From positions 32,001 through 96,000 of the forward strand of contig JAGSHN010000020.1 in assembly GCA_029855935.1 (NCBI GenBank): a stretch of DNA of 64,000 nucleotides, read 5' to 3'. Shown here piece after piece: positions 1-25,933 of this stretch. The DNA comes from Candidatus Thorarchaeota archaeon (lineage in GTDB: Archaea; Asgardarchaeota; Thorarchaeia; Thorarchaeales; Thorarchaeaceae). The notes under the pieces are model-generated. The model had not been told where the DNA came from, made no database searches, and saw nothing but the letters and a program-made list of their open reading frames with translations. The position numbers and the translations under genes were made by a program. Position 1 is the stretch's first letter. The number at the start of each line of letters is the position of its first letter.

Positions 1-411
1 CACGCCATCGACGACTGGCCCAAGGTCCGTGACGACCCCAAGACCGTCAGCACAGTGAGACAGAGTGCAGTCCCACGCATCGCAGAGGCACTGCGCAGCC
101 ACCCAGTGCCGTGGTGGATTCTCCACGCCATCAGAAACTGGCCCGAGGTCCGTGACGACCCCAAGATTGTCAGCGCCATCGCAGAGGCACTGCGCAGCGG
201 TCCCAAGCCGTGGAGGATTCTCCACGTCATGAAGGGCTGGCCGGGAGTTCAAGCCCATCCGGATGTGAGAGCGGCGATAGATGATGTGGCCGAGAAGATC
301 TGTCAGGCTCGTAGTAGGCAGTGGATTCCGGACATAACATGGGAGAGCATAGTCAAGATTCCCCAGCTCAGGCAGCACGAGTGCATAGAACGCCTTCTGT
401 CCCGTGACTAG
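1..411 (+). CDS. 3' end of a helical-repeat protein, paralog of 944..3976 (5' truncated by window edge)
   Basis: Frame is open from base 1 (HAIDDWPKVRDDPK...). Carries the same IAEALRSHPxPWxILxxIxxWxxVRDDPKIV repeats and the same C-terminal cap (IVKIPQLRQHECI) as 944..3976. Confidence 0.85.
   Translation, partial: HAIDDWPKVRDDPKTVSTVRQSAVPRIAEALRSHPVPWWILHAIRNWPEVRDDPKIVSAIAEALRSGPKPWRILHVMKGWPGVQAHPDVRAAIDDVAEKICQARSRQWIPDITWESIVKIPQLRQHECIERLLSRD
79..276 (+). repeat. Coding tandem repeat, 99-bp (33-aa) unit
   Basis: atcgcagaggcactgcgcagc recurs at 79 and 178; a partial unit precedes it at 1-78. Confidence 0.85.
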
Positions 412-943
412 GAACAGCAACAATCACGCGAGTACAGAGAAGCCGCATTGTTCGAATCCGCTGTATCGTTGCAGAACCACAGTGCAGACAGAGTAATCAC
501 CGTACGGGACGCACTGCCAGGCATCGCCAAGTCTAGTTGATATCGATTCATCAATCAACCATCCGGTCGTCACAGATTGGCATATGATCTTGCCAACACG
601 AGGCGCTGCGCCTGTCATCTGCACCACCTGAGCACTGGCCACTATCGGTCGCGCAGAGAACGCGACTACGACCACTGGAAGATCTATAGGCGTAGTGTAG
701 GTGTGTGAGCTTCCAACTAGCCTGATTCTTCGCGGTCGGGTATATGACACATCACATCTGGCTGGTCCAGCAAATGGACATCTATGTTGACCCTCGAATC
801 CACGGCGGAAACTACCTAGTCACTCCTCAGGAGCCAATACAAGCCCTCGGTGCGATATGCAGAATCATCGGTCATACAATCGCGGGAAGATTTACATTAC
901 CGTATACAGACTTGGGTTCGACCCTGACGAGGGAGGGTGACGA

Positions 944-3900
944 TTGAGTCCCAGCAGCCAAGACGTGTCGAGGCTCGCAGACCTCATTGCAAGGCTTGCG
1001 CTGTACGCGATAGGCACTGTCCGCGAGAGACTCACACTAGACAACGTTGTGGGGTTCATAAGTGGTATCTGTAGTGGTGCTCCACTGGGGATTGGCGATT
1101 TTGCCCTCTCGAAGACACTCGAGGCGTTCTGGGATAGGATAGAGAGATGGGCGAGGAAGAGAGAGCTTGCGAAGACCATAAGGGGCCTCTACTTGTATCG
1201 ATCTGCCAACAGAGGCGTCAGAAAGAGTCTGGACAAGATTCCGAAGCTGATTCAAAGCAACGCGAGTAGAATTCGGAAGGAACTTGAGGCTGGTCGGTCA
1301 TTCGTCGAGATAGTCGAGGGCCTGCTCGCAGATACAGACGATATCAAGCTTCCCGAGGACTACGCAAAGAAGCTCCCAATCAATCTCCAGCATGCGATAT
1401 TTCGTGTTGTAGCATCGGGAGTCAAACTGCCTGATGTGTACAGCTTTCTCATAGGTGTGGGGATGAAGAATGACGAGATTAGCCAGGCCATAGAACTACT
1501 TCGTGCAACGCTTCAGTCCAATGCACTGGCCCGAGAACTCGTTGACCTGAGCTTCAGCACGCGTCTTGAGAGAATCGAAGTCACTCTCGACTGCGACGCT
1601 CTGACGGCTGAGCAGAATGAATCGCTCTTGCAGGACAGGACCGCACCCGAACCAACCTTCTTCAGAAGGCCGCACCTCAACTGGGTAGACCTCGAGAGAG
1701 GATACTACTATGACAGGTCCAAGCTCGTAGACGACATTGAGGACAAGTTTGCTCAGGGGAGATGGCTCCAACTCATTGTGGCGCCCTCGGGTGCAGGCAA
1801 GACAACTCTGGGACTCATCATCGGCTACAGGCACTTGACACTCTACGGCGGAATAGCATACTATGTCAATCTCGAAGACAGAAGCGATGTTGACCTGGCG
1901 AGAGATGTTGGCGAGATTGCCAAGGCCCTGAAGAGAATCAGAATGACTGCGGGGTCAAGGAGAGGTAATGATGAGGAAGACCTTGCCGACTATGATTCTG
2001 CTTCTGTTGAGGAGATTCCAAGCATACTCGTCATAGTCGACAACATTCACCTCAACCTCGGATTGGTCAAGGACTTGATACGAAGCGTCCGTAGCGCCTA
2101 CGTAGGGACTGACCTTGCCGCCGCATTGAGTATCCTCCTTCTTGCACGTGTTGGTCATGAGGACTTGCAGAGGGGTACTGAGCAGATACTTGCAGAGCTA
2201 TTCGATTCTAGACTCGGTAGGCGCATAGCCGGAACTCATACTCTTGAGAAGCGCGATTTCAAGGACGCTGTCAGAGGGATTGCCGAGGTCTTCGCAAGGG
2301 AGAGAAACATCGGAGATATCAAGTCGTTCGAGCGGGATCTGGTCAGGAGGAGCCAGGAGAGCCTGTGGTTGCTCTCTTTTGTTCTCCGAGGACTGGAAAA
2401 AGGCAGGTCAATCGAAGAGATCGACCTGTGTGAGGAGGTTGAGAAGTTCTACTATTGCGAATTCGAAAGATCAGAGCGCATCAATTCGGTCTTTCATCGT
2501 GTCCTTCATACACGCGCCAGTGAAAATGGACTTGACCTGGGACGACTTGAGCCTGCTGATGCGAGGGGAGCATTGCGTGCTGTACTGACGACCATTGCGG
2601 CACTCGGTACTCTCGGGACACCTATGCCCAAGAAATACTTGATTGAGGCTGCGGAGAGGTACGGAGTGCCAAGCGACATCGCGGGAGGCTTCCTCGAAGG
2701 CGAAGAAGCCAAAGCTGTCGTGGAGGAGATGATAGAACGTCTACGTACACTCAATGAGATTGTTGATGGAGAGATGGCGGGTGAGCAGACCGTCAGGCTT
2801 CCTCACACTACCCTTGCAGAGGTGGTCTGGAGTTGTGCAGTCAAGACAGGACGACCCAGCATCCTTGCAGAAGAGTCCCGCGATGACGATACCAGTATTG
2901 CCGCACACGACATGAGAGAACGGATCGTACTCTCGCTCCTCGACTGGTGTGCAGGATACGGCATAGTCGACAAGAATGGTGGTCCCGGCCTCTTGCCTCA
3001 GGTGATTCGGCAAGCCATCTTGGAGAACTTCTGGACTTGGAACCTTCATGTCATAGCGAACTGGTTCCGTGAGGGGGAGGACTTGCAACGACAACCGCGC
3101 CTGAGTGCTCTTGCAATTGCACTTGAGAACTATCCTGGGCTATCTATTCTTGATCTTCCTCTCTTCTCGTCGGGATTTCTTCCCGATGCATGGGAATCCT
3201 TGTTCAAAGATGCATTCCTCGTTGCCGACCGTCCGGGCCTCGTACTATACGCGATAAAATCGTTCTTTACGAGAAGACCAACGATTTTGGAAGTAGAGGC
3301 ACGCATTGATGACCTGTGCGCGGAAATCGCCCAGACACAGGAATCGAAAACTGTTTTGAGCGCCATATCCCCGTTTCTTGAGATTCGCAAGAACGAGAGA
3401 ATAGTGAATGCAATCGCTATGGTGTTGCGCAGCCATCCTGAGCCGTGGGAGATTCTCTACGTCATCAGCGACTGGTACGATGTCCGTAGCGACCCCAAAA
3501 TTGTCGTCGCCATCTCAGAGGCTATCCTTAGCCATCCTGAGCCATGGAAGATCCTTGAACCCATCAGCCTTGGAATCATCGAGTGGCCCGAGGTCAGTGG
3601 CAATTCCAAGGTCATCAACGCCATCGCAGAGGCACTGCGCAGCCATCCTAGGCCGTGGTGGATTCTCTACGCCATCAGCGACTGGGACGAGGTCCGGGAC
3701 GACCCCGAGATCGATAGCGCAGTGGGAGAGACTGCCATCCCACGCATCGCAGAGGCAATACGCAGCAGTTTCAATCCGTGGTTGATTCTACATCGTATCG
3801 TAGACTGGTCCAAGATTCAAGCGAATCCGGATGTGAGAGCGGCCATAGATGAGGTGGCCGAAACAATCTGCGAGGATCACCGTTGGGGACTGATTCCAGA

Positions 3901-3976
3901 CTGGGTGTGGGAAAACATAGTCAAGATTCCCCAGCTCAGGCAGCACGAGTGCATAAGGCGGTTTCTGTCGGAGTGA
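944..3976 (+). CDS. STAND-class P-loop NTPase (NLR-like) with N-terminal helical domain and C-terminal 33-aa repeats
   Basis: Walker A APSGAGKT (1781-1804), Walker B ILVIVDN, sensor-1-like ILLLAR, later helical/WH region with LPH motif. GGAGGGTGA RBS before a TTG start. Confidence 0.75.
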   Translation: MSPSSQDVSRLADLIARLALYAIGTVRERLTLDNVVGFISGICSGAPLGIGDFALSKTLEAFWDRIERWARKRELAKTIRGLYLYRSANRGVRKSLDKIPKLIQSNASRIRKELEAGRSFVEIVEGLLADTDDIKLPEDYAKKLPINLQHAIFRVVASGVKLPDVYSFLIGVGMKNDEISQAIELLRATLQSNALARELVDLSFSTRLERIEVTLDCDALTAEQNESLLQDRTAPEPTFFRRPHLNWVDLERGYYYDRSKLVDDIEDKFAQGRWLQLIVAPSGAGKTTLGLIIGYRHLTLYGGIAYYVNLEDRSDVDLARDVGEIAKALKRIRMTAGSRRGNDEEDLADYDSASVEEIPSILVIVDNIHLNLGLVKDLIRSVRSAYVGTDLAAALSILLLARVGHEDLQRGTEQILAELFDSRLGRRIAGTHTLEKRDFKDAVRGIAEVFARERNIGDIKSFERDLVRRSQESLWLLSFVLRGLEKGRSIEEIDLCEEVEKFYYCEFERSERINSVFHRVLHTRASENGLDLGRLEPADARGALRAVLTTIAALGTLGTPMPKKYLIEAAERYGVPSDIAGGFLEGEEAKAVVEEMIERLRTLNEIVDGEMAGEQTVRLPHTTLAEVVWSCAVKTGRPSILAEESRDDDTSIAAHDMRERIVLSLLDWCAGYGIVDKNGGPGLLPQVIRQAILENFWTWNLHVIANWFREGEDLQRQPRLSALAIALENYPGLSILDLPLFSSGFLPDAWESLFKDAFLVADRPGLVLYAIKSFFTRRPTILEVEARIDDLCAEIAQTQESKTVLSAISPFLEIRKNERIVNAIAMVLRSHPEPWEILYVISDWYDVRSDPKIVVAISEAILSHPEPWKILEPISLGIIEWPEVSGNSKVINAIAEALRSHPRPWWILYAISDWDEVRDDPEIDSAVGETAIPRIAEAIRSSFNPWLILHRIVDWSKIQANPDVRAAIDEVAETICEDHRWGLIPDWVWENIVKIPQLRQHECIRRFLSE
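3413..3870 (+). repeat. Four coding repeat units (33, 37, 41 aa and a capping unit)
   Basis: Units start at 3413, 3512, 3623 and 3746, consensus IAEALRSHPxPWxILxxIxDWxxVxxxPxI. Confidence 0.85.
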
Positions 3977-4197
3977 CTGAGAACAACAATGATCACGCAA
4001 GGGCAAGGAAGCCCACCATATCATTCTGACCACACAGAACCGGCGCAGAACCGTGGCGAAGCCAAAGCAATCTCCGTATGGGACGCAGTACAATCGAAGT
4101 GGTACCTAGTCCCTCTGTGTCCACTGCCCAAGGACACTTGGCTACCGCGAGATATGGAGCGAGGGCGGCCAGCCCCCGCGACCCCCGTGGCGCCGAA

Positions 4198-5211
4198 TCA
4201 CAGAGCGACGTTTGGCCCATTGTTCAATCTGCGCCACCACAGCCCCCGCCCCTCTCTCAGGTACCACAATGCCTTGGCGAGGTCGACAATCGCGCGCCAC
4301 GAGCTCGCCGCCACAACGACAGAGATGACGAACACCCATTTCCACAGGAGGACATCAGGTCCCGGTCCGGCGGTGGCCAACAGTGCGGTCAGGTCAACTA
4401 GGGTCCACACGCCATTCTGGTAGAGGTAGACGTACCGCGTGGGCCAGCCGATATGGATCAGGACAGATGCAAGCAGGGCCTGGGCGATGCCCACTGCACC
4501 CTCAACTATCAGGCTTGTTGTGTTCTCGCCAGCCCACAGGAACACGAGTCCCACCGAAGCCTGAGCGAGGAGTATTGCCACCAGGTACGGCACGAACACG
4601 AGGAATACTGGTGTCAACATCACCTGAAGTCTCGGGTGGAGAAGCAGGGCCGAGATGACCACGCCTCCCACTACATCCATGACCGCACTCGTTCTGGTCT
4701 TCCTTCTGAGTCCCTCTCTCCCGATGGCCAGCACGCGCTCGAAGAGTGTCCTGTCCGCTGTATTGGTCTGCACCTCGATAATATGGCGCTGTTCAAGGAT
4801 AGACAGTACCGCAAGTACGCACAGTACCACTATCCAGCTGATGATGAGCGGCCCACTGACGGGCAACACATCGGGCAACACCTGCGCCGCGACCAGTGTG
4901 CCAAGCACGAGAGCGAGGCCAGCACTTGCGAGCACGAAGAGAAGCGCGATCAACGGTCGCAGATATTCGACAGGCACGGGTCCGACTCTCTTGCCAGTCC
5001 CCGCATACTCATTGGCCACAGCCTGAGGCTCGCCCATCCGCTCAATGGCCATCAGGGCTGACCCCGGCGTGATCTCTCCGTCACCAATCCGCTCTGCCTC
5101 CTGAATGAGGTGAGTCCTGAGCTCCAGCAGATACTCCTCGTCCTCCATCGGCAGGTAGGTCCGGACACGTTCCAGATACTGGTCAATCAGACGCATCGCC
5201 CTGTCATTCAC
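4198..5211 (-). CDS. Membrane protein with N-terminal HAAS-type domain (PadR partner)
   Basis: IDQYLERVRTYLP...ELRTHL...AIERMGEPQAVA signature, then about 6 TM segments. Overlaps the padR stop by 4 bp. Confidence 0.75.
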   Translation of the reverse strand: MNDRAMRLIDQYLERVRTYLPMEDEEYLLELRTHLIQEAERIGDGEITPGSALMAIERMGEPQAVANEYAGTGKRVGPVPVEYLRPLIALLFVLASAGLALVLGTLVAAQVLPDVLPVSGPLIISWIVVLCVLAVLSILEQRHIIEVQTNTADRTLFERVLAIGREGLRRKTRTSAVMDVVGGVVISALLLHPRLQVMLTPVFLVFVPYLVAILLAQASVGLVFLWAGENTTSLIVEGAVGIAQALLASVLIHIGWPTRYVYLYQNGVWTLVDLTALLATAGPGPDVLLWKWVFVISVVVAASSWRAIVDLAKALWYLREGRGLWWRRLNNGPNVAL

Positions 5212-5588
5212 TCCCCAGATACCTCCTTCACAATCCTGTCCATCCCATCCGAGAGCTCGCGCCAGATCTTGCTCATCATCCTCACAGCCTTCTCTCCCTC
5301 CCTCGTGAGGGTGTAGTACTTCTTCGGCTTTGCAGGGTCAGTGTAGTCCCACTCCGCCGCCAGAAGTCGCCTCTTCTCAAGACGCCTAAGAATGGGATAG
5401 ACGGTCCCCTGTTCAAGCGACAGAAACGAAGCCTTCTCGTCAAGCTGCTTGACCAGCTCGTAGCCGTAGGCACGACCGCCACTGAGCAGTGCCATCACGG
5501 CAAGCGATACCGCGCCGCGCTTGACCTCCTTCGACCACCGTGTGATCTCCTCCTCGACATTGTCAGACACTCTGGTCACACTCATCAC
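5208..5588 (-). CDS. PadR family transcriptional regulator
   Basis: KRGAVSLAVMALL..RAYGYEL..QGTVYPILRRLE..KKYYTLTREG. Confidence 0.92.
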   Translation of the reverse strand: MMSVTRVSDNVEEEITRWSKEVKRGAVSLAVMALLSGGRAYGYELVKQLDEKASFLSLEQGTVYPILRRLEKRRLLAAEWDYTDPAKPKKYYTLTREGEKAVRMMSKIWRELSDGMDRIVKEVSGE

Positions 5589-5592
5589 CCGA

Positions 5593-5628
5593 CATATGGT
5601 AGCACCATATGATGGCTGTCATCATATG
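5593..5628. promoter_or_regulatory. Two overlapping inverted repeats, probable PadR operator
   Basis: CATATGGT-agc-ACCATATG (5593-5611) and CATATGATG-gctgt-CATCATATG (5606-5628), immediately upstream of the padR start. Confidence 0.6.
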
Positions 5629-5700
5629 TGGCGAACGACTGTTGGGCCATTCAGATTGGCCTGCGCAGCAGCGACGGATGGGCCCCGTCTGGCTACGGCT

Positions 5701-6774
5701 CTATTCGAATATGCAGCCGCCTGGCCGGCTCGGAGCGGGAGTGCCCTCCTTGATGTGCACGAGGATTCCGTGCGACTTGGAGAACTCGAGAACAGTCTCC
5801 ACGCAACGGGAATAGAATGCCGAGGAGTTGGGATACTCTCTGACCAGCCTATTGTAGTTCCATCTTCCGAAGATAATCTTGTCAACAAATGAGACCTGTT
5901 CGAGAAGGTCCGTTAGTCGCTGCTGGACGATATTAGGAGTCGGATACGGTTCGATACTGACCCAGGTCTTCAGGCCCAAGCCGCTGAGCCTGCGGAGTGA
6001 GGATATCCTGTCTTGAGGAGGTGCCGAGAGCGGTTCATACCGGTCCACGAAACCCTTGTCAAGAGAAACCACCGAGACTCCGTACTCATTGTCCGCAGCG
6101 TATCTCTCATCTGACAGGGAGGGGGGATAGAGGCCCTTGGTGAGCGTGGTCACGCGGACTCCAGCGCGATTCAGCCTCTCGATAATCGCAAGCGTCATGT
6201 CACGGACCCAGGGTATGACCCGGTGGTTGACGGGGTCGTACATAAACGGGTCTGTCGTGAAGGACAGGTGAACAAAGCGGATCTTGCCTCTCAGGCGTGG
6301 GAGCTCCCGGTCAAGCAGCTCCAATGCATTCCCCACAAGGCGCGGATGGAGCCAGTCCTCATATCCGGCGACTCGGCCGTACCGACGAGCCATCATCATT
6401 GCGTAGCAGGGGTACCTGCATCCGTGAGCACATCCCAGCAGGTGGTTTATTGTGTAGTCTCCGTACTCCACCCCGGTCCGGTACATTAGACTCTTGCGTC
6501 GGATTGTGGGAAATGAGTCAAAGTACACAACGTCACGCGATCTGATGTCGGTACGAATTCTACCCTCTGCAATTCGCGGGCGCCGCTCCACGTACACGCG
6601 GCCTTCCCTCTCAAGATATCGAATTGAGGCCTCAACCAGCCTTGGGTCAACACCGGAGGCAACATCCGCAAGGAGGTCTATGACTGGCATATGTTGGCCT
6701 CTGAGCTCCTCCAAGAGAGCCCTCGCCAGTTTCGCTATTTCAGCCTGTCTTGGAACCTGGATCTCCACTGGCAA
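5701..6774 (-). CDS. Radical SAM protein, spore-photoproduct-lyase-like family
   Basis: INHLLGCAHGCRYPCYA Fe-S motif, HLSFTTDPF, TLTKG, TWVSIEP. Confidence 0.8.
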   Translation of the reverse strand: MPVEIQVPRQAEIAKLARALLEELRGQHMPVIDLLADVASGVDPRLVEASIRYLEREGRVYVERRPRIAEGRIRTDIRSRDVVYFDSFPTIRRKSLMYRTGVEYGDYTINHLLGCAHGCRYPCYAMMMARRYGRVAGYEDWLHPRLVGNALELLDRELPRLRGKIRFVHLSFTTDPFMYDPVNHRVIPWVRDMTLAIIERLNRAGVRVTTLTKGLYPPSLSDERYAADNEYGVSVVSLDKGFVDRYEPLSAPPQDRISSLRRLSGLGLKTWVSIEPYPTPNIVQQRLTDLLEQVSFVDKIIFGRWNYNRLVREYPNSSAFYSRCVETVLEFSKSHGILVHIKEGTPAPSRPGGCIFE

Positions 6775-19860: not shown

Positions 19861-22800
19861 ATGGTCGATGCGAAGGCGCTTGCCAAGAAGGTTGGCAGGG
19901 GCATCCTAGTCACTGCAGCCAGTTTCGTGGCAGGCGTCGCTCTCGGACCAATCGGCCCAGCTGTTGGGGCCTTCGTCGCCAAGAAAATGGCGGAACTCGG
20001 TGTCTCAATCAGCCCTGATAGCGTCAGCAAGATGTTTGAGGACCGCATCGGGAAATCTCCAATGAACATTGCGATGCTCACGGAGAGGGAGAGCCTTGAG
20101 AACATAGCCAAGGCCATTGCCGAAGAAACAAGAGTGTCCCAAGACGAGGCCTTCGCTGCCGTGCAGTACGGAATACGCGAGCTTCGGTCGGCTCTCGATG
20201 GCGTTCTATCATCGATGCGTGAAGACAGGCGACTTCTCCACGAGGTTCTCAATCTCACTGGAGAGAACAACACAAAGATTGACGAGCTGGTCAATAATAG
20301 TAGGCTTGTTGAATCATCATTGAGGAGAATGCAGGATTCTCTTGAGATGATGGATGCTCGACTCGAGGCAGTGTTTCGGGAATTCGCACAGCTCCAGCTT
20401 AGGGGAACCAGACTCGGTCTAGAGAAACTTCGCGTCGTGAGCTTGCTTCAGCGCCAGAGTATTCTGCTGACATCGCGGTACGGTGTGCCCTACGACCCCA
20501 ACTTGTACGTTCCACGCAGACGTGAGGAGGCCGTCTTCAATGCCTTCCTGCACGACATAGGGTACTCCGACAAGAACTGCTTCCTTCTCTTGGGTGATGT
20601 CGGCATGGGCAAGACGTGGTCTATGGCTCGTTTCTCCACAATGGCTCTGGACGAGGGCCTCTTGGTGTTCTTCGTCCCGCTCTCACACGGGGTGCAGACA
20701 CTCACCAGCCTGTTCAATGTTCAGACCATTTCGAATCTGGTCAGCCTGCTGGACGAGATTCTCTCCCAAGAGGATGGAAGAACCCTGATATTCCTTGACG
20801 GTCTCGACGAACTGAGTCCGGCTGATGCTCGTCTGCTTCTTAGGCAGGTTTCAAGCAGTAGATCCAGGTACGTATCCTTCGTCTTGTCCTGCAGAGCCGC
20901 CGACTGGGCCCATAGCGACTCTCTCGTTGAGGCATCGAATCATCTTCGGCACCTGATATACGCTGATGACGATGCTACCCGACGTGCTCACGAGCGCGGT
21001 GTACAGACTCCCGTTTCGATATTCCTCTCTGAGCTTACCGACGACGAGCTGAAGATAGCCATTCAAAGATATGGCCTCCCTACCGATGGCAGCATAGCGA
21101 CGGAAGTCCTGCCGATGTTACGCAAGCCGTACTTCCTCCGCGTTGTGTCTGACTGGTTCGCGGAGCATCATTCAGTCCCACAATTAGATACCCCTGAGTT
21201 TCTCATCCTAATGGCTGGCACTGAAGATTATCAAGACTGTGTCTTCCGTCGCCTTGGAATAGTCACCCACAGGGAGGCGCTCTACAAGCTCGTGGAGTAT
21301 TTCATCATCCAGCGCCGTCACAGGTTCCCTCTCGCAAACCTCCCAATCGAATACGACACCGAAGCATTTCGCGCCTTGATCTCTTCAGGACTGATCACAC
21401 TCAGACAGGGCACACTAGGAGTTGAGGCGTCGCTGAATCCCGAGTTCTCTCTCCCCCTCATCAGCCTCACCCTTGCTCGACTCAAGGCCCAAGGCAGGCG
21501 TGAAACCGTCATAGAGTCGCTCAGGTCTTGGCTCCCCGAGATTGCTGAGTCAGCGACTCGCCTTGCAGATGCGCTTCTGAGTTATCTCGGCAGTAGCATT
21601 GATGTTCCAACTGAGATGGCACAGGAAGGAACAGATCGTACAACGACCCTGCCGCAGACTGCGGGAGAAAGTTCGATGGATAGCGCAGAGATCCAACGCC
21701 CGGCTCTAGTCGCTGTTTCACAGCCAGCCCGCATCCTTTCGTCAATTGGTGGGGTTCCGACGGAACTGACCAACGAGGTCTTTGAAGGAATACGAACTGT
21801 TCTCAACGATAGCGACACGGCGACTCGTGCTAGCGCCGCACTTGCGCTAGCACTGGCAGGAACCGCACTGGATGAACCACGAGAAGCATTTTCACTTCTG
21901 CTCACGTGCTTGACAGATGGGGAGATAGAGGTGCGTTTCAGTGCTGCCATTGGCCTCGGACTGGTGGCAACAGCGATGCACGACTGTGAAGATGCGATTT
22001 CTTCCCTGAGTAGTCTCCTCAAGAGAATTGATGACACTTGGGACATTCATCAAGCTGTGGCATTGGGTCTGGGTCTCGCCGGAACTGTCGCGAGCGACCC
22101 CCAAGAGCTGGTTTCAGCACTCAACGTAGCCCCTTGGAGCGAACCAGGACAGAAACACATCGAAACGGCCTGTGGTCACTTGCTAGCTCTTGCCTTTGTC
22201 GCGCCAGCGCTGGTTGATGTCCGAGAGGTCATCGAAGTCCTGCGGAGCAACGTGGAGCGTGGGGACGCCGTTGTGCGAGATTGCGGGGCACTTGGCCTCG
22301 GCATTGTAGGGATGATGCTGGGTCATTCACAAGAGGTACTTGATACCCTGCGTCGGCTGCTGTTCGACTCCGAAGAGACTGTGTCTGTTCGCCAACAGGC
22401 TGCACTTGGGCTCGCGCTCGCAGGCGTACTGTCAGACAGTCCAGAGGACATCTTAGTAATGGCGCTTCCCTTCCTCTCATATGATGCTGAGCCAAGCAGT
22501 GGGTTTCTTGGCCCTAGCCACGACGAACTCGATGATGGTAGCGACGAGGAGGACGAGATTCCGGATCTTCCGGCTCCTCCAGGCTACAACGGTGCAGAAG
22601 AAACGGCTCAGATTCGTGAGGCCGTTGCTGAAGGCCTTGGGCTGATTGCAACTGTATTGGAAAGAGCCCACGACGCGACAAACTTGTTGCGTCATCTCCT
22701 TGAAGACAAGAGTTACCACATACGCCGAGGGGCTGCGTTCGGGTTGGCGTTGGCCGGAACCGTAGCGAAGAACCAGAATCAAATAGTCGCTCTGCTGGCA

Positions 22801-23313
22801 TCGCTTCTTGAGAACCGACAGGAGGACACAACGGTTCGTGCGCAGGCTGCTCTCGCCCTCGCAGTGTTGAGCACTTCTCTCAGTGAGCCGGATCACATTG
22901 TAACACTGCTGGTCAATCTTCTCAAAGAACCCTATGAACACAGGCTAGTCCGAGCTAGAGCTGCGTTCGGACTTGCTCTCATTGCGACAGCAACAGATAA
23001 GCGAAGGGAGATATGTGATGTCCTAAAGTCCGTAGCCATCGAAGGAAGTAATCCGGTGCGCCCAGACGCCATAGTTGCCCTCGGCCTAGCGGCAAGCAAT
23101 ATTGGCCAGCCGTGGTACGAGATTCTAAACGATAGTAGCGATGATGACAGGAGTGGTCATAGGGTCAATGCGATACTCGCGTCTCGAGCTGCTGTCATTG
23201 GGCTGGCTTTGGACGAATTCAGGCTCCGCTCGTACTATCCCTTCTGGTACTACGTTGGCTGCTATCTGTGCTTGGCTAGACAAATCCGGCCTCGTTTCCG
23301 CACAGACGGTTGA
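19861..23313 (+). CDS. STAND/NACHT-like NTPase with C-terminal PC/HEAT-like helical repeats
   Basis: Walker A GDVGMGKT (20593-20616), Walker B LIFLDGLDE, FVLSCR, LRKPYFL; about 11 repeats with AALGLGL-type helices. GAGGTGA RBS. Confidence 0.8.
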   Translation: MVDAKALAKKVGRGILVTAASFVAGVALGPIGPAVGAFVAKKMAELGVSISPDSVSKMFEDRIGKSPMNIAMLTERESLENIAKAIAEETRVSQDEAFAAVQYGIRELRSALDGVLSSMREDRRLLHEVLNLTGENNTKIDELVNNSRLVESSLRRMQDSLEMMDARLEAVFREFAQLQLRGTRLGLEKLRVVSLLQRQSILLTSRYGVPYDPNLYVPRRREEAVFNAFLHDIGYSDKNCFLLLGDVGMGKTWSMARFSTMALDEGLLVFFVPLSHGVQTLTSLFNVQTISNLVSLLDEILSQEDGRTLIFLDGLDELSPADARLLLRQVSSSRSRYVSFVLSCRAADWAHSDSLVEASNHLRHLIYADDDATRRAHERGVQTPVSIFLSELTDDELKIAIQRYGLPTDGSIATEVLPMLRKPYFLRVVSDWFAEHHSVPQLDTPEFLILMAGTEDYQDCVFRRLGIVTHREALYKLVEYFIIQRRHRFPLANLPIEYDTEAFRALISSGLITLRQGTLGVEASLNPEFSLPLISLTLARLKAQGRRETVIESLRSWLPEIAESATRLADALLSYLGSSIDVPTEMAQEGTDRTTTLPQTAGESSMDSAEIQRPALVAVSQPARILSSIGGVPTELTNEVFEGIRTVLNDSDTATRASAALALALAGTALDEPREAFSLLLTCLTDGEIEVRFSAAIGLGLVATAMHDCEDAISSLSSLLKRIDDTWDIHQAVALGLGLAGTVASDPQELVSALNVAPWSEPGQKHIETACGHLLALAFVAPALVDVREVIEVLRSNVERGDAVVRDCGALGLGIVGMMLGHSQEVLDTLRRLLFDSEETVSVRQQAALGLALAGVLSDSPEDILVMALPFLSYDAEPSSGFLGPSHDELDDGSDEEDEIPDLPAPPGYNGAEETAQIREAVAEGLGLIATVLERAHDATNLLRHLLEDKSYHIRRGAAFGLALAGTVAKNQNQIVALLASLLENRQEDTTVRAQAALALAVLSTSLSEPDHIVTLLVNLLKEPYEHRLVRARAAFGLALIATATDKRREICDVLKSVAIEGSNPVRPDAIVALGLAASNIGQPWYEILNDSSDDDRSGHRVNAILASRAAVIGLALDEFRLRSYYPFWYYVGCYLCLARQIRPRFRTDG
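21766..23100 (+). repeat. About 11 coding helical repeats of 36-40 aa (PC/HEAT-like)
   Basis: RASAALALAL, RFSAAIGLGL, HQAVALGLGL, RDCGALGLGI, RQQAALGLAL, REAVAEGLGL, RRGAAFGLAL, RAQAALALAV, RARAAFGLAL, RPDAIVALGL. Confidence 0.8.
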
Positions 23314-23528
23314 CATCAGACTGAGAGGTCGAACGCGACAGCCAGCGATGATTCAAGCACCGATATGCAAGATGGGGACCTACGCGACGGCGATAGAACC
23401 ATTTGTTTCGGTATCACTGGTGGATTCGGCTACAGGAGAGAACGCCTCGCATATAGATAGGAACTGACTGGCAATCTACAGAAAGAAATATCACCGCGAC
23501 GCCACGTCACAGGACGCAGGGAGATGCA

Positions 23529-24071
23529 ATGGTCGACATCGACTTCGCTGACTACGTGGATGTGATAAAAGACTGGCCACAGCCGGGTCAGGCCGTCTGT
23601 GATATCAGCAGGCTCCTTGAGGACCCAACAGTGTTCCATGAGGCAGTCGTCACGCTCGCCAAGCCCCTCGTGGAACTGCGACCGAACAAGGTTGTGGGGA
23701 TAGATCAGCGCGGCCTTGCCCTGGGCAGTGCCATTGCCTACTACCTTGGATGCGGTATCGTACCGACGAGATCGATTGCCTACCTTCCGGAGGACTACAG
23801 ACGCCCTGTGGAGCTCCTCCCTGCAAGCCGCTTTGCGGACCAGAGGCTGGCGCTGGTCTCAGAGTCGATTGACCCAGGCGACCGTGTCGTGATCGTGGAC
23901 GACTGGATCACGCAGGGGACAACTGTTCTCGCCGTCAAGAGAATTGTGGAGAGGCTTGGCGCACAGGTCGTCGGCGTGGCATGTGTGATCAACAACCTGT
24001 CGGAGACTCGTCGAAAGATACTGGGCCGGCCCGAGATTCACTCTCTGATTGAGAACTTGCCCTTTGAGTAG
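23529..24071 (+). CDS. apt: Adenine phosphoribosyltransferase-like PRTase
   Basis: IKDWPQPG..CDISRLL, VVGIDQRG, GDRVVIVDDWITQGTT. Confidence 0.75.
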   Translation: MVDIDFADYVDVIKDWPQPGQAVCDISRLLEDPTVFHEAVVTLAKPLVELRPNKVVGIDQRGLALGSAIAYYLGCGIVPTRSIAYLPEDYRRPVELLPASRFADQRLALVSESIDPGDRVVIVDDWITQGTTVLAVKRIVERLGAQVVGVACVINNLSETRRKILGRPEIHSLIENLPFE

Positions 24072-24247
24072 TGGGCCAGCCCATGAGGTCATCTCCTGCG
24101 AAAGCTGTCCACTGACCTATCATTTGAGATTTCCAACAGCCAGACTTTCTGCTGGCGGTCTCTCCGCCAGATGACAGGTCGCAGACAGGCAAAAGATAGG
24201 TGAGGAGGACCGAACGGGCGCGACAATGACCCGCCGGTCCCTGTCCT

Positions 24248-25933
24248 CTATTGTTCCTCCTTCTCTTCCCGCGCTCTGAGCTCGCGTCGGAGAACCTTGC
24301 CCACAGCCGTCTTCGGCAGCTCGTCAACGAACTCGATCTCGGTGGGCACCTTGTAGGGGGACATTCGTTCCTTGCAGAATGCACGGATCTCCTCGAATGT
24401 TGCGGTCTCGCCAGGCTCGAGCACAATGAACGCCTTGACAGTCTCTCCACGCGTCGGGTGTGGGACACCGACGACCGCGGCCTCCCGTATCTTGGGGTGC
24501 TCGAACAGGACCTCCTCCACATCGCGCGGCCAGACCTTGTAGCCGCTGGCGTTGATGAGGTCCTTCTTCCTGTCGACTATGTAGGTCCACCCGTCCTTGT
24601 CCATCTTGGCAATGTCGCCAGTGAGCAGCCAACCGTCCTCCGTCAGCACGTCAGCCGTCTCGTCGGGCCTGTTATGATAGCCCTTCATCACCTGAGGCCC
24701 CTTGACACTGAGCTCTCCCACCTCACCAGGTGGCAGAATCTTGGTCCGATCATCGAGGTCGACTATGCGACAGTCGGTACTGGGCATAGGTAGACCGATA
24801 GAGCCAACCTTTCGCAGTTCCTTGTCCAGTGGGTTGGCATGAGTGACCGGGCTGGCCTCCGAGAGGCCGTAGCCCTCAATGATGATACTGTTCGTGGCCG
24901 CCTCCCACTTCCTTGTGACCTCTGCAGGCAGCGCCATTGCACCTGCGATGGCCATCTTCAACGAGGTCAGGTCGTACTTCTTGACCTCAGGATGCGAATA
25001 TATGGCTATGGCCAGAGTTGCCACAATTGGGAAGAAGGTCGGCTTCTGCGTGTGAATCAGCTTTAGCAGCTTCTTGATGTCACGAGGGTCAACGACAAGA
25101 AGAATCTTCGATGCCCAGGCGATGCCAAGATTCATTGTCACTGTCTGCCCAAAGATGTGCTGCAGCGGCAGCGCGCCAACAAAGATCTCTCTCCCCTTCT
25201 CGGCCATCCAGTCCATCCAAGCACTGCACTGCGCACAGTTCGCCTTGAGGTTGTTGTGCGTCAGCATTGCTGCCTTTGGAATACCAGTCGTACCCCCTGT
25301 GAACTGATAGACAGCGAGGTCCTCGGCCGGGTTGATCGTCACTTCTGGGGGCTCCGGTACAGCATCAGCAAGGAACTGCTCCCAGGTCATGTCGTTGGGT
25401 CCAAGTGGCGGGACCTCCTTCATCTGCTTCCTGTAGACCAGCTTTGGCGCCAGTATCCTCTTTATCTTGCTGAGCATATCCCACGCTGCTGTCACAATGA
25501 CACGCTCAAGGTTGGTCTCCTCCCGTATGGCATTCACGACCTTGAGGAAAAAGTTCATTGTCACCAATATCTTGGCGCCAGTGTCCTGAAGATATACCCT
25601 GAGTTCCTTGGGCATACTCAATGGGTTGACAGGCGTGACTATCGCACCGCATTTCAACGCGCCATAGTACGCGATGACGAACTGTGGAATATTGGGAAGC
25701 ATTAGTGCAACTGCATCGCCCTTGCGCACACCGAGTCTGTAGAAGGCGTTGGCCGCCCTGTCAACGTAATCGCCAAGCTCCTTGTAGGTTATCTCTGTAC
25801 CCTCGAAGAAGAGGGCCACATTGTCAGGATATTCTGCAATCGCCTGGTCCAAGTTGGCCCAGAGCGGACTGTCGTCCAGCTCAATCTCTCTGGGTGTACC
25901 AGGAACATAGTGTTCGTACCACGGTCGATCCAA
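24248..25933 (-). CDS. Long-chain-fatty-acid--CoA ligase
   Basis: FTGGTTGIPKAA, EGYGLSEASP, GPQVMKGY, LTGDIA..DRKKD, LPKTAVGK. Confidence 0.92.
   Translation of the reverse strand: MDRPWYEHYVPGTPREIELDDSPLWANLDQAIAEYPDNVALFFEGTEITYKELGDYVDRAANAFYRLGVRKGDAVALMLPNIPQFVIAYYGALKCGAIVTPVNPLSMPKELRVYLQDTGAKILVTMNFFLKVVNAIREETNLERVIVTAAWDMLSKIKRILAPKLVYRKQMKEVPPLGPNDMTWEQFLADAVPEPPEVTINPAEDLAVYQFTGGTTGIPKAAMLTHNNLKANCAQCSAWMDWMAEKGREIFVGALPLQHIFGQTVTMNLGIAWASKILLVVDPRDIKKLLKLIHTQKPTFFPIVATLAIAIYSHPEVKKYDLTSLKMAIAGAMALPAEVTRKWEAATNSIIIEGYGLSEASPVTHANPLDKELRKVGSIGLPMPSTDCRIVDLDDRTKILPPGEVGELSVKGPQVMKGYHNRPDETADVLTEDGWLLTGDIAKMDKDGWTYIVDRKKDLINASGYKVWPRDVEEVLFEHPKIREAAVVGVPHPTRGETVKAFIVLEPGETATFEEIRAFCKERMSPYKVPTEIEFVDELPKTAVGKVLRRELRAREEKEEQ

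What the first reader, a model, noticed from the sequence alone, without database searches (positions are those of the whole stretch)
1..3976. Tandem NLR-like genes with 33-aa repeats carrying hypervariable positions
Seen: two adjacent paralogs end in repeats IAEALRSHPxPWxILxxIxxWxxVRDDPKI. Framework codons are nearly identical (atcgcagaggcactgcgcagc at 79, 178, 3623) while fixed positions change radically: position 10 V/K/E/E/R/N, 13 W/R/E/K/W/L, 16-17 HA/HV/YV/EP/YA/HR, 22 P/Y/D/S. The order of the 41-aa and 33-aa units differs between the genes, and a 40-bp cap is identical (348-387 vs 3916-3955). Known: fungal NLRs and prokaryotic STAND defence proteins use repeat sensors diversified by shuffling. 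Inference: a variable-receptor array, possibly antiviral, with a repeat family I do not recognise. The NTPase of the upstream copy lies outside the window.
Basis: partly seen in the sequence, partly recalled or inferred. Interest (0 to 1): 0.78.

Follow-up and report, generated by a model that had tools for sequence, protein, structure and literature searches.

The report
Tandem Asgard NLR-like ATPases, SKWP-type repeats
Two neighbouring genes of an Asgard (probably Thorarchaeota) archaeon encode NLR-style switch ATPases whose sensor ends are built from the same kind of helical repeat as the SKWP/XopAD effectors of plant pathogens. The repeats show signs of recombination and fast amino-acid change, but no immune role has been shown.

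Summary
Window 1-411 is the 3' end of gene A, which starts 2.5 kb upstream of the window and has its own P-loop. Window 944-3976 is its paralog, gene B (1010 aa, about 70% identical).

Both genes have three parts:
- an all-helical N-terminal head of about 225 aa that matches no catalogued family;
- a STAND/ORC-type NBD-HD-WHD module (model pLDDT 82; best fold matches SAMD9, NLRPs, Avs3/4/5, NRC2, MalT, Cdc6/ORC);
- 3-5 helical repeats of 33 or 41 aa, then a cap.

The repeat is not an unknown family. Repeat-rich relatives hit NCBIfam XopAD/skwp at E 4e-12, and the 41-aa units align without gaps to 42-aa SKWP units.

The "hypervariable" positions are the surface positions of the solenoid (omega about 1.1, against 0.23 for the framework). 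This fits neutral or diversifying change and does not prove either.

Real dynamics are present:
- A second assembly, 99.99% identical, carries one extra 123-bp unit in B.
- A 45-codon tract shows gene conversion between A and B.
- The first repeats show excess amino-acid divergence between A and B (p 6e-5).

The family is small and patchy: 14 of 76 genomes of the host's own family, and almost none elsewhere. Antiviral function is inferred only. The scan had already met this family on other DNA (e1-5538994, e1-5456028).

The parts
1..411 (+). 3' end of gene A (the whole gene is G000:C6:29478-32411, i.e. it starts 2522 nt before the window). Contents: end of unit A1 with its 8-aa extension, unit A2 from 79, unit A3 from 178, C-terminal cap 277-408, stop 409-411.
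412..943 (+). Intergenic region. Its last ~140 nt are about 75% identical to the sequence upstream of gene A, including a TTTACATT TATA-like box about 55 nt before the start and a GAGGGAG Shine-Dalgarno-like motif 7-13 nt before the TTG start. The duplication therefore included the promoter/5' leader.
944..3976 (+). Gene B, 1010 aa, TTG start: tripartite STAND-like protein.
944..1618 (+). N-terminal head (residues 1-225). All helical, with a Gly/Ala/Ser-rich hydrophobic segment at residues 35-55 and a confident helical bundle at residues 60-160. No Pfam, PDB or fold match.
1619..2863 (+). NOD module (residues 226-640): conserved FFRRPH..W.DL lead-in, P-loop NBD, helical domain and winged-helix domain.
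1781..1807 (+). Walker A (residues 280-288, GAGKTT; G283, G285, K286 and T288 are invariant in the family).
2024..2044 (+). Walker B strand (residues 361-367, hhhhhDN). D366 and N367 are invariant. There is no second acidic residue.
2801..2806 (+). Invariant Pro620-His621 (LPH) at the end of the winged-helix domain, at the place where AP-ATPase/NB-ARC proteins carry the MHD-type histidine.
   Evidence: the comparison with MHD is from established knowledge, not tested in 3D
2864..3343 (+). Helical linker/arm (residues 641-800) between the NOD and the repeats.
3344..3844 (+). SKWP-like repeat array. It has a half-unit lead-in (residues 803-823) and units B1 824-856, B2 857-893 (4-aa insert), B3 894-934 (41 aa) and B-last 935-967. 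Each unit is modelled as a 13-residue helix, a 7-10-residue helix and a one-turn helix, with pLDDT about 90.
3697..3697 (+). Site where the near-identical assembly GCA_027031745.1 (L006) has 123 extra bases, i.e. one more 41-aa unit. The junction lies inside a 32-nt run that is identical between the two neighbouring units.
3845..3976 (+). C-terminal cap (residues 968-1010) and stop. It contains the 40-bp stretch 3916-3955 that is identical to 348-387 in gene A.

Best explanation
A and B are tandem duplicates of a small, lineage-restricted Asgard family of NLR-like STAND NTPases.

Shown:
- Each protein has an N-terminal all-helical head, then a P-loop NBD, helical domain and winged-helix module of the STAND/ORC type, then a helical arm. 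It ends in a short solenoid of SKWP-type (HEAT/armadillo-like) repeats plus a cap.

Inferred by analogy with Apaf-1, plant and animal NLRs, MalT and bacterial Avs proteins:
- The repeat solenoid holds the NOD in an off state and binds a ligand, most likely a protein from a virus or other mobile element.
- Binding allows nucleotide exchange and oligomerisation, which brings the N-terminal heads together.
- The head is then the output. Its conserved hydrophobic, small-residue-rich segment makes membrane perturbation on clustering my preferred guess. Recruitment of an unknown partner is the alternative.

How the pair evolves (shown):
- Gene conversion between the paralogs keeps parts of the NOD homogeneous.
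- Unequal recombination between repeat units changes unit number.
- The first repeats accumulate amino-acid changes at exposed positions faster than the rest of the gene.
For: Architecture:
- The AF2 model of B 225-1010 has pLDDT 81.8 and pTM 0.72, with five parallel strands and helices, then a helical domain, then a winged helix.
- Foldseek gave 53 PDB matches at E<=1e-3. The best are SAMD9 (9e-7), NLRP9/3/2/7, STAND-TPR 6mfv, paby2304, Avs3, Avs4, NRC2/3, NLRC4, NOD2, CED-4 and ORC/Cdc6.
- The VIA-align 2 structural aligner gave, as best rows spanning NBD to WHD: EfAvs5 Z 13.9 (445 aligned), AVAST5 12.9, ORC2 12.4, NRC2 11.8, paby2304 11.8, MalT 11.2, SAMD9 10.8.
- Pfam gives weak nSTAND1/nSTAND5/AAA_22 hits in B, with stronger ones in relatives (P0011 nSTAND5, 30.6 bits).
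- Invariant family motifs are GAGKTT, DNIHLN and LPH.

Modularity:
- The same repeat is fused to nSTAND5-type NTPases and to an Arf/Roc-like GTPase in relatives.
- The related NTPase core is joined to WD40 (P0014) in a relative, and to 13 TPRs in a third gene of this genome. That third gene also shows a head-like N-terminus (profile E 3.7e-4).

Repeat identity:
- NCBIfam XopAD/skwp hits at E 6e-12, 3.9e-12 and 6e-7 for repeat-rich members.
- tblastn of a 17-unit member against 72,556 plasmids hit 16 records; 13 of the 15 listed are annotated XopAD/skwp genes, the other two carry no annotation.
- The unit HMM hits LNALSKWPD 19 times in register, at 42-aa spacing apart from one skipped unit.
- BLASTP of B's C-terminus against XopAD gives 4e-4, with 41-aa units aligned gap-free.

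Dynamics:
- L006 is 99.99% identical over 23 kb but has one extra 123-bp unit.
- B codons 516-560 show no synonymous change, P 2e-8.
- B 778-893 has a nonsynonymous:synonymous ratio of 56:11 against 349:240 elsewhere, Fisher p 5.8e-5.
- Among units, omega is 0.23 at framework positions and 1.1 at variable positions.

Accessory, patchy distribution typical of conflict genes:
- 40 hits among 1.84 billion representative proteins.
- 14/76 genomes of the same family, 1/19 in one other family, and 0 of 205 in the other families of the phylum sampled.
- Only weak, partial matches in a 98%-complete genome of the same genus (best E 4e-8 over the NTPase core).
- One genome holds at least 4 NTPase copies plus repeat-only fragments.
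Against: - No functional evidence of any kind, and no PADLOC family.
- The neighbours are peptide-binding transporter proteins, a NurA/HerA pair, PadR plus a membrane protein, and a radical-SAM-like gene. This is not a recognisable defence island.
- The Walker B is DN with no second acidic residue, so hydrolysis may be slow or absent.
- The head has no fold match and a poor model (pLDDT 53), so its output role is a guess.
- Only 3-5 repeats are present, a short sensor compared with most NLR/Avs sensors.
- Omega in the first repeats is not significantly above 1 (p 0.18).
- The extra unit could be an assembly difference, not a real allele.
Confidence: 0.6

Rival explanations
1. The pair is a non-immune regulatory or scaffolding STAND switch, in the manner of MalT, of signalling ATPases, or of Asgard-specific cell biology. 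The repeats bind an endogenous partner or metabolite-loaded protein. The variation seen is ordinary drift of a recently duplicated, weakly constrained gene.
For: - No defence neighbours and no PADLOC hit.
- Overall omega of 0.3-0.5 indicates purifying selection over most of the protein.
- MalT and ORC/Cdc6 are among the structural matches.
- The same repeat is fused to an Arf/Roc-like GTPase in relatives, which suggests a general protein-binding module.
Against: - The distribution is patchy, even within the genus.
- One genome shows a copy-number burst.
- Sensor types are swapped on related NTPase cores.
- Amino-acid change is in excess in the sensor.
These are the usual marks of conflict genes, not of core regulators.
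Confidence: 0.25
2. This is a true hypervariable receptor array. Directed or strongly positive selection acts at fixed repeat positions, and frequent unit shuffling generates allelic diversity in the population, as in fungal NLRs with highly conserved internal repeats.
For: - One unit gain or loss between genomes that otherwise differ by about 1 SNP in 23 kb.
- Units B3 and B4 are 88% identical with dN/dS 1.9. Variable positions have omega 1.1 against 0.23 for the framework.
- There is an excess of nonsynonymous change in B 778-893.
- Variable positions 10, 13, 16/17 and 20 have i, i+3/4, i+7 spacing on the second helix, i.e. one helix face.
Against: - Only two assemblies exist and only 8-10 units, which are not independent.
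- Omega is not significantly above 1 (p 0.18).
- Most unit pairs are 53-79% identical, well below fungal high-identity repeats.
- There is no second DNA copy of the repeat in the genome that could act as a template for a diversity-generating retroelement.
- The pattern equals that of any solenoid surface.
Confidence: 0.2
3. The 4-unit versus 5-unit difference is an assembly artefact, i.e. a collapse or expansion of near-identical 123-bp units in a metagenome assembly, and says nothing about biology.
For: - Both sequences are metagenome-assembled.
- The two units share 89% identity.
- The breakpoint lies in a shared 32-nt run.
Against: - The longest exact repeats are 32-34 nt, shorter than the final k-mers of usual assemblers.
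- The deletion is exactly one unit and in frame, with a clean chimeric unit. This is what unequal homologous recombination gives.
Confidence: 0.35

Closest known systems
Prokaryotic STAND NTPases with helical-repeat sensors: Avs/AVAST families (Avs3, Avs4, Avs5), nSTAND1/nSTAND5 of Kaur et al. 2020 (PMC7159879), and the survey of 589 STAND clades in PMC12803255
   Same: - Tripartite order: N-terminal output, then NBD-HD-WHD, then an alpha-helical repeat sensor.
- Best structural matches include Avs3/4/5.
- Weak nSTAND1/5 Pfam hits.
- Patchy, accessory distribution.
   Different: - Below every curated Pfam cut-off, and no PADLOC model.
- The N-terminal head belongs to no known effector family.
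- The sensor is a very short array of 3-5 SKWP-type units, not TPR.
- The Walker B is DN.
- No phage-defence test exists.
SKWP repeats of the type III effectors RipS1-8 (Ralstonia) / XopAD (Xanthomonas, Pseudomonas), NCBIfam NF041399. They are described as 40-42-aa HEAT/armadillo repeats (PMC4617103, PMC3878972).
   Same: - A shared unit motif (A-[IL]-S-x-W-P after a hydrophobic L/I pair), hit 19 times in register in one XopAD protein.
- Significant profile and tblastn similarity for repeat-rich family members.
- The 41-aa units of A and B align gap-free with 42-aa SKWP units.
   Different: - The usual unit here is 33 aa, with 8 residues of the first helix missing.
- There are 3-17 units, against 18 or more.
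- The repeats are fused to NTPases in archaea, not part of a 2,500-aa secreted bacterial effector.
- Scores (about 44 bits) are far below the family cut-off of 2000 bits. Only the repeat type is shared, not family membership.
Eukaryotic NLR-type STAND proteins and SAMD9 (NLRP3/9, NLRC4, NOD2, plant NRC2/3, Apaf-1/CED-4)
   Same: NOD fold and domain order. SAMD9 is the top Foldseek match (E 9e-7) and NLRPs follow. There is an invariant His at the end of the winged helix, as in MHD-type proteins.
   Different: No NACHT or NB-ARC sequence signature (no Pfam hit at E<=1). The sensor is not LRR or WD40. TM-scores are low (0.2-0.3) because only the NOD superposes.
Fungal NLRs with highly conserved internal repeats (ANK/TPR/WD40) that diversify by unit shuffling (e.g. 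PMC13449251)
   Same: Tandem paralogs, unit-number change by recombination between units, and amino-acid change concentrated at exposed repeat positions.
   Different: Unit identity here is mostly 53-79% (one pair reaches 88%). Positive selection is not demonstrated. There are far fewer units.

Membership tests
STAND NTPase superfamily (Leipe et al. 2004 definition, from established knowledge) | Walker A P-loop GxxxxGK[ST] | tested here: met
   GAGKTT at B residues 283-288. G283, G285, K286 and T288 are invariant in the 6-sequence family alignment. The same motif is in gene A.
STAND NTPase superfamily | Walker B hhhhD followed by a second acidic residue (D/E) used for hydrolysis | tested here: inconclusive
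   The strand ILVIVD366 is present and invariant. The next residue is an invariant Asn (DNIHLN), with no acidic residue within 5 positions. The Asp is met; the second acid is not.
STAND NTPase superfamily | NBD followed by a helical domain and a winged-helix domain (NOD module) | tested here: met
   AF2 secondary structure and order. Full-module structural matches to Avs5, ORC2, NRC2, paby2304, sso1545, MalT and SAMD9.
STAND NTPase superfamily | C-terminal superstructure-forming repeats | tested here: met
   3-5 helical units of 33/41 aa with pLDDT about 90.
STAND NTPase superfamily | Nucleotide-dependent oligomerisation switch | not testable with these tools
   Needs biochemistry.
Pfam nSTAND1 (PF20703) / nSTAND5 (PF25199) | Score above the curated gathering cut-off | tested here: not met
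   B scores 14.5 bits against 27.1 and 14.8 against 34. The best relative, P0011, scores 30.6 against 34.
NACHT / NB-ARC (animal and plant NLR NTPases) | Sequence match to PF05729 / PF00931 | tested here: not met
   No such hit at E<=1 for B, or at E<=0.01 for ten relatives. The likeness is at fold level only.
XopAD/SKWP type III effector family (NCBIfam NF041399) | Tandem repeats carrying the SKWP motif | tested here: met
   - The unit HMM positions 14-23 hit (V)LNALSKWPD 19 times in register, at 42-aa spacing apart from one skipped unit, in a Pseudomonas XopAD.
- NF041399 E 4e-12 to 6e-7 for repeat-rich members.
- The listed tblastn hits in the plasmid collection fall on XopAD/skwp genes or unannotated DNA.
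- B itself matches only weakly (BLASTP 4e-4; no NCBIfam hit).
XopAD/SKWP type III effector family (NCBIfam NF041399) | Full-length family membership (cut-off 2000 bits; about 2,100-2,600-aa secreted effector) | tested here: not met
   At most 44 bits over profile positions 352-769 of 2133. Architecture and host are different.
Antiviral STAND (Avs) defence systems | Match to a known defence model, or demonstrated protection | tested here: not met
   PADLOC gives only a spurious P-loop match to mad8/Cas3 (E 0.003-0.02). Protection was not tested.
Fungal-type NLRs with highly conserved internal repeats | Units more than about 85% identical in nucleotides, with positively selected positions | tested here: inconclusive
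   Only B3/B4 (88%), A2/B3 (85%) and A2/B4 (84%) approach this. The other pairs are 53-79%. Omega at variable positions is 1.1, not shown to exceed 1.

The most novel reading that the evidence does not exclude
An Asgard-restricted family of innate-immune-type receptors. The uncatalogued N-terminal head, with its hydrophobic Gly/Ala/Ser-rich hairpin, would be a membrane-executing domain analogous to the plant CC, fungal HeLo and MLKL four-helix heads, fired by NOD oligomerisation. The SKWP-type sensor would be retuned in populations by unit gain and loss and by paralog gene conversion. That would be an archaeal counterpart of resistosome-style cell-death immunity in the closest prokaryotic relatives of eukaryotes. 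It would also give the first assigned function (ligand capture) to the SKWP repeat used by plant-pathogen effectors.
Probability: 0.15. Interest if true: 0.8.

Novelty: new variant of a known kind. Interest (0 to 1): 0.5.

Why it matters
STAND/NLR switches are the common chassis of innate immunity and regulated cell death in animals, plants, fungi and bacteria. Asgard archaea are the closest known relatives of eukaryotes, and their NLR-like repertoire is barely described. PMC11291487 only lists NLR hits found with bacterial models.

This family escapes Pfam, NCBIfam and PADLOC cut-offs. It joins an uncatalogued head to a sensor made of SKWP repeats, a repeat type so far named only in type III effectors of plant pathogens. 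I found no paper linking that repeat to archaea or to STAND proteins.

It also offers a compact, testable case of how such receptors change, through one-unit recombination and paralog conversion. If the head proves to be a membrane effector, the family would bear on the origin of resistosome-like death domains.

As it stands, it is a well-supported new family of a known kind, without any functional data.

Tried and rejected
- **Tandem Repeats Finder**, window 1-6000: no array at the repeat. The units are too diverged in DNA.
- **Family libraries on B and on the tail of A**: Pfam, NCBIfam and PADLOC gave only sub-threshold P-loop/nSTAND hits and nothing for the repeats, even at E<=5 in 17-unit relatives for Pfam.
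- **PDB sequence search with family profiles**: only P-loop fragments and a designed helical repeat at E 0.17.
- **N-terminal head**:
  - The AF2 model is poor (pLDDT 53; only residues 60-160 are confident).
  - Foldseek found nothing at E<=0.001. The best VIA Z is 5.3 (a phenylalanine ammonia-lyase helical region and the colicin N pore domain), inside the noise range for helical bundles.
  - One relative has a faint CARD hit (E 0.004-0.005), seen in 1 of 10 members, so I do not use it.
  - A word-index search for small proteins carrying only the head found none.
The searches with the 786-residue model tested essentially residues 10-407 only. The HEAT/ARM-like call therefore rests on secondary structure, the SKWP sequence link and the literature.
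- **Diversity-generating retroelement**: blastn of the repeat DNA against the whole genome found only A and B themselves, so there is no template copy. I did not search for a reverse transcriptase.
- **Synteny in a same-genus genome (G003, 98% complete)**: the flanking Pyr_redox and HerA orthologues lie on different contigs, and the radical-SAM-like neighbour was not found with this query. The locus is not collinear, so no clean insertion-site comparison was possible.
- **Complex prediction** was not run. No specific binding claim is made.
- **The STAND-like gene at window 19861-23313** has no detectable sequence similarity to B.

Full report
**What is in the sequence**

The window is G000:C6:32001-96000 of a 2.97-Mb archaeal genome in 32 contigs.
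- Frame +1 is open from base 1 to a stop at 409-411. A 1010-codon ORF runs from a TTG at 944 to 3976.
- Searching the genome with the 1010-aa protein (B) finds the missing part of the upstream gene (A) at C6:29478-32411. From the homologous TTG it is 977 aa, and it has the same P-loop and Walker B.
- A and B align end to end at about 70% amino-acid identity.
- About 140 nt upstream of each start are also about 75% identical, including a TATA-like TTTACATT and a GAGGGAG motif just before the TTG. The duplication therefore copied gene plus leader.
The 21-mer lies at 79, 178 and 3623, and the 40-bp identical cap is 348-387 against 3916-3955.

**The NTPase core**

Sequence libraries barely see these proteins.
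- Pfam gives nSTAND5, nSTAND1, AAA_22 and ATPase_2 at E 0.03-0.08, all below cut-off. NCBIfam and PADLOC give only P-loop noise.
- A family profile against PDB sequences finds only P-loop fragments.

Structure prediction is clearer.
- With a 28-row alignment, residues 225-1010 fold at mean pLDDT 81.8 and pTM 0.72. The model has a five-stranded P-loop domain, a helical domain, a winged helix with its beta-hairpin, a helical arm, and then the repeats.
- Foldseek returns 53 PDB matches at E<=1e-3. SAMD9 leads, followed by NLRP9/3/2/7, the STAND-TPR protein 6mfv, paby2304, Avs3, Avs4, NRC2/3, NLRC4, NOD2, CED-4 and ORC/Cdc6.
- The Foldseek-independent aligner VIA-align 2 ranks EfAvs5 first (Z 13.9, 445 residues). 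The rows that span NBD through winged helix are Avs5, ORC2, NRC2, paby2304, sso1545, MalT and SAMD9.
- Family-invariant residues are the P-loop G283/G285/K286/T288, the Walker B D366-N367-I368..N371, and P620-H621 at the end of the winged helix.
- The DN Walker B lacks the usual second acidic residue, so the protein may be a slow or non-hydrolysing switch. This is inference.

I file it as a STAND-type NOD by fold. I do not file it as a member of NACHT, NB-ARC or any Pfam nSTAND family, whose cut-offs it fails.

**The repeats**

- Seven hand-picked units gave an HMM. After three rounds it collects 237 units of 33 aa in about 45 proteins.
- A has 3 full units, B has 4, and each has a half-unit lead-in and a cap.
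- In the model, each unit is a 13-residue helix (unit positions 28-33 plus 1-7), a 7-10-residue helix (positions 11-20) and a one-turn helix (positions 22-25), with pLDDT about 90.
- Conserved positions are hydrophobic (1, 2, 4, 5, 11, 12, 14, 15, 18, 21, 24, 30, 33). Variable ones are 3, 7, 9, 10, 13, 16, 17, 19, 20, 22, 23, 25, 26, 28, 29 and 31.
Positions 10, 13, 16/17 and 20 lie on one side of the second helix by periodicity. I could not verify this in 3D.

A note from an earlier run of this scan on another genome (e1-5456028) called such repeats SKWP-type, and I tested that lead.
- tblastn of a 17-unit relative (P0008) against 72,556 plasmids hit 16 records. Of the 15 listed, 13 are annotated XopAD/skwp type III effector genes of Pseudomonas and two carry no annotation. 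E-values go down to 5e-8.
- NCBIfam NF041399 (XopAD/skwp) matches three repeat-rich members at 6e-12, 3.9e-12 and 6e-7.
- My unit HMM hits (V)LNALSKWPD 19 times in register, at 42-aa spacing apart from one skipped unit, in a Pseudomonas XopAD. Twenty shuffles of that protein scored at most 0.8 bits, against 5.5 for the real sequence.
- BLASTP of B's C-terminus against XopAD gives 4e-4. The 41-aa units (33 aa plus the 8-residue ..AVGETAIPR extension) align without gaps to 42-aa SKWP units.
- SKWP repeats are described as 40-42-aa HEAT/armadillo repeats of RipS/XopAD effectors of unknown function (PMC4617103, PMC3878972).
- So the repeat is a known type in a shortened form. It is not a member of the effector family (44 bits against a 2000-bit cut-off).
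- No paper in the searchable library links SKWP repeats with archaea or STAND proteins.

**The N-terminal head**

- Residues 1-225 are conserved across about 10 relatives (18-63% identity).
- They match no Pfam family, no PDB sequence and no solved fold. The best Z is 5.3, within noise.
- The model is confident only for a helical bundle at residues 60-160.
- A segment at residues 35-55 is rich in Gly, Ala and Ser and moderately hydrophobic. The 19-residue Kyte-Doolittle means are 1.4 in B, 1.7 in A, and up to 2.0 in relatives.
- A third gene of this genome (C24:97477-100950) has a head-like N-terminus (profile E 3.7e-4), a related NBD (BLASTP 2e-4) and 13 TPRs in place of SKWP units.
- Relatives of the NTPase core carry WD40 (P0014). 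The SKWP-type repeat also follows nSTAND5-type NTPases and an Arf/Roc-like GTPase.
- This swapping of sensors on a shared core is the NLR/Avs pattern.

**Evolutionary dynamics**

- A second public assembly (GCA_027031745.1, L006) is syntenic and 99.99% identical over 23 kb. Apart from one substitution, the only difference is 123 extra bases in B, one more 41-aa unit. The breakpoint lies inside a 32-nt run shared by the neighbouring units. This is what unequal homologous recombination produces. An assembly collapse cannot be excluded without reads.
- Between A and B, dN/dS is 0.3-0.5 in most domains.
- Codons 516-560 of B show no synonymous change at all (P 2e-8 given the gene-wide pS of 0.36), which indicates gene conversion.
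- Codons 778-893 (lead-in and first two units) show 56 nonsynonymous against 11 synonymous changes, compared with 349:240 elsewhere (Fisher p 5.8e-5). Omega there is about 1.5 but not significantly above 1 (p 0.18).
- Among the eight units, omega is 0.23 at framework positions and 1.1 at variable positions. The units are not independent samples.
- No further copy of the repeat DNA exists in the genome, so a retroelement template is unlikely.

**Distribution and context**

- An exhaustive phmmer search of 1.84 billion representative proteins finds only 40 proteins at E<=1e-3, and 5 at E<=1e-30.
- The sources that carry a name are Candidatus Thorarchaeota and Promethearchaeota MAGs. Earlier notes of this scan also call this genome Thorarchaeota; I did not test that directly.
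- The repeat region is found in 14 of 76 genomes of the host's own family, in 1 of 19 of one other family, and in 0 of 205 genomes of the other families of the phylum sampled.
- In the same genus, a 98%-complete genome has only distant matches. One genome of another genus has at least four NTPase copies plus repeat-only fragments on short contigs.
- The neighbours are two peptide-binding proteins, a NurA-like/HerA pair, a PadR regulator with a membrane protein, and a radical-SAM-like gene. They do not form a recognisable defence island, and the locus is not collinear in the same-genus genome.

**Verdict**

- The NLR-like reading is supported at the level of architecture and evolutionary behaviour.
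- The unknown repeat is identified as SKWP-type.
- Hypervariability and an antiviral role remain unproven.
- The scan had already met this family on other DNA: the 1070-aa relative P0005 (e1-5538994) and an SKWP-type receptor (e1-5456028).
- I rate it a new variant of a known kind, of moderate interest. Its value lies in the Asgard setting, the uncatalogued head, the link to SKWP repeats, and a directly testable one-unit polymorphism.

Noticed in passing
G000:C24:97477-100950 (+), outside the window (L029:2478-5948): A third STAND-like gene of 1157 codons. It has an N-terminus weakly similar to the A/B head (profile E 3.7e-4), a P-loop GSGKT, a Walker B LLIVEN, and about 13 very regular TPRs with highly similar units (Pfam TPR_11 E 6e-84).
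   Followed up: partly
L006:1977-5742 (= G000:C6 about 21337-25114, upstream of the window): A divergent NurA-like protein of 641 aa (Pfam NurA at exactly its 21.0-bit cut-off) overlaps a HerA/DUF87 ATPase (621 aa) by a few codons. The pair stands alone, with no Mre11/Rad50 in the 23-kb locus examined, 4 kb upstream of gene A. The HerA has 61-66% orthologues in two related genomes.
   Followed up: partly
window 4198-5588 (-): A PadR-family regulator (126 aa) is translationally coupled to a 337-aa multi-pass membrane protein with an N-terminal HAAS domain. This is a typical PadR/HAAS sensor pair, immediately downstream of gene B on the other strand.
   Followed up: no
It has no detectable sequence similarity to gene B (best BLASTP E 1.1).
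   Followed up: partly
G019 contigs C134, C156, C194, C74, C50 (L010, L016-L019): One genome of the same family holds at least four NTPase copies of this family, plus several repeat-only open frames with up to 17 units. Most sit on short contigs that end inside the repeats. This suggests a recent expansion that breaks the assembly.
   Followed up: partly
P0010 / L013 (G015:C17): The same SKWP-type repeat array (about 10 units) follows an Arf/Roc-like small GTPase domain in about 735-aa proteins that NCBI annotates as ADP-ribosylation factor-like proteins of Thorarchaeota.
   Followed up: no
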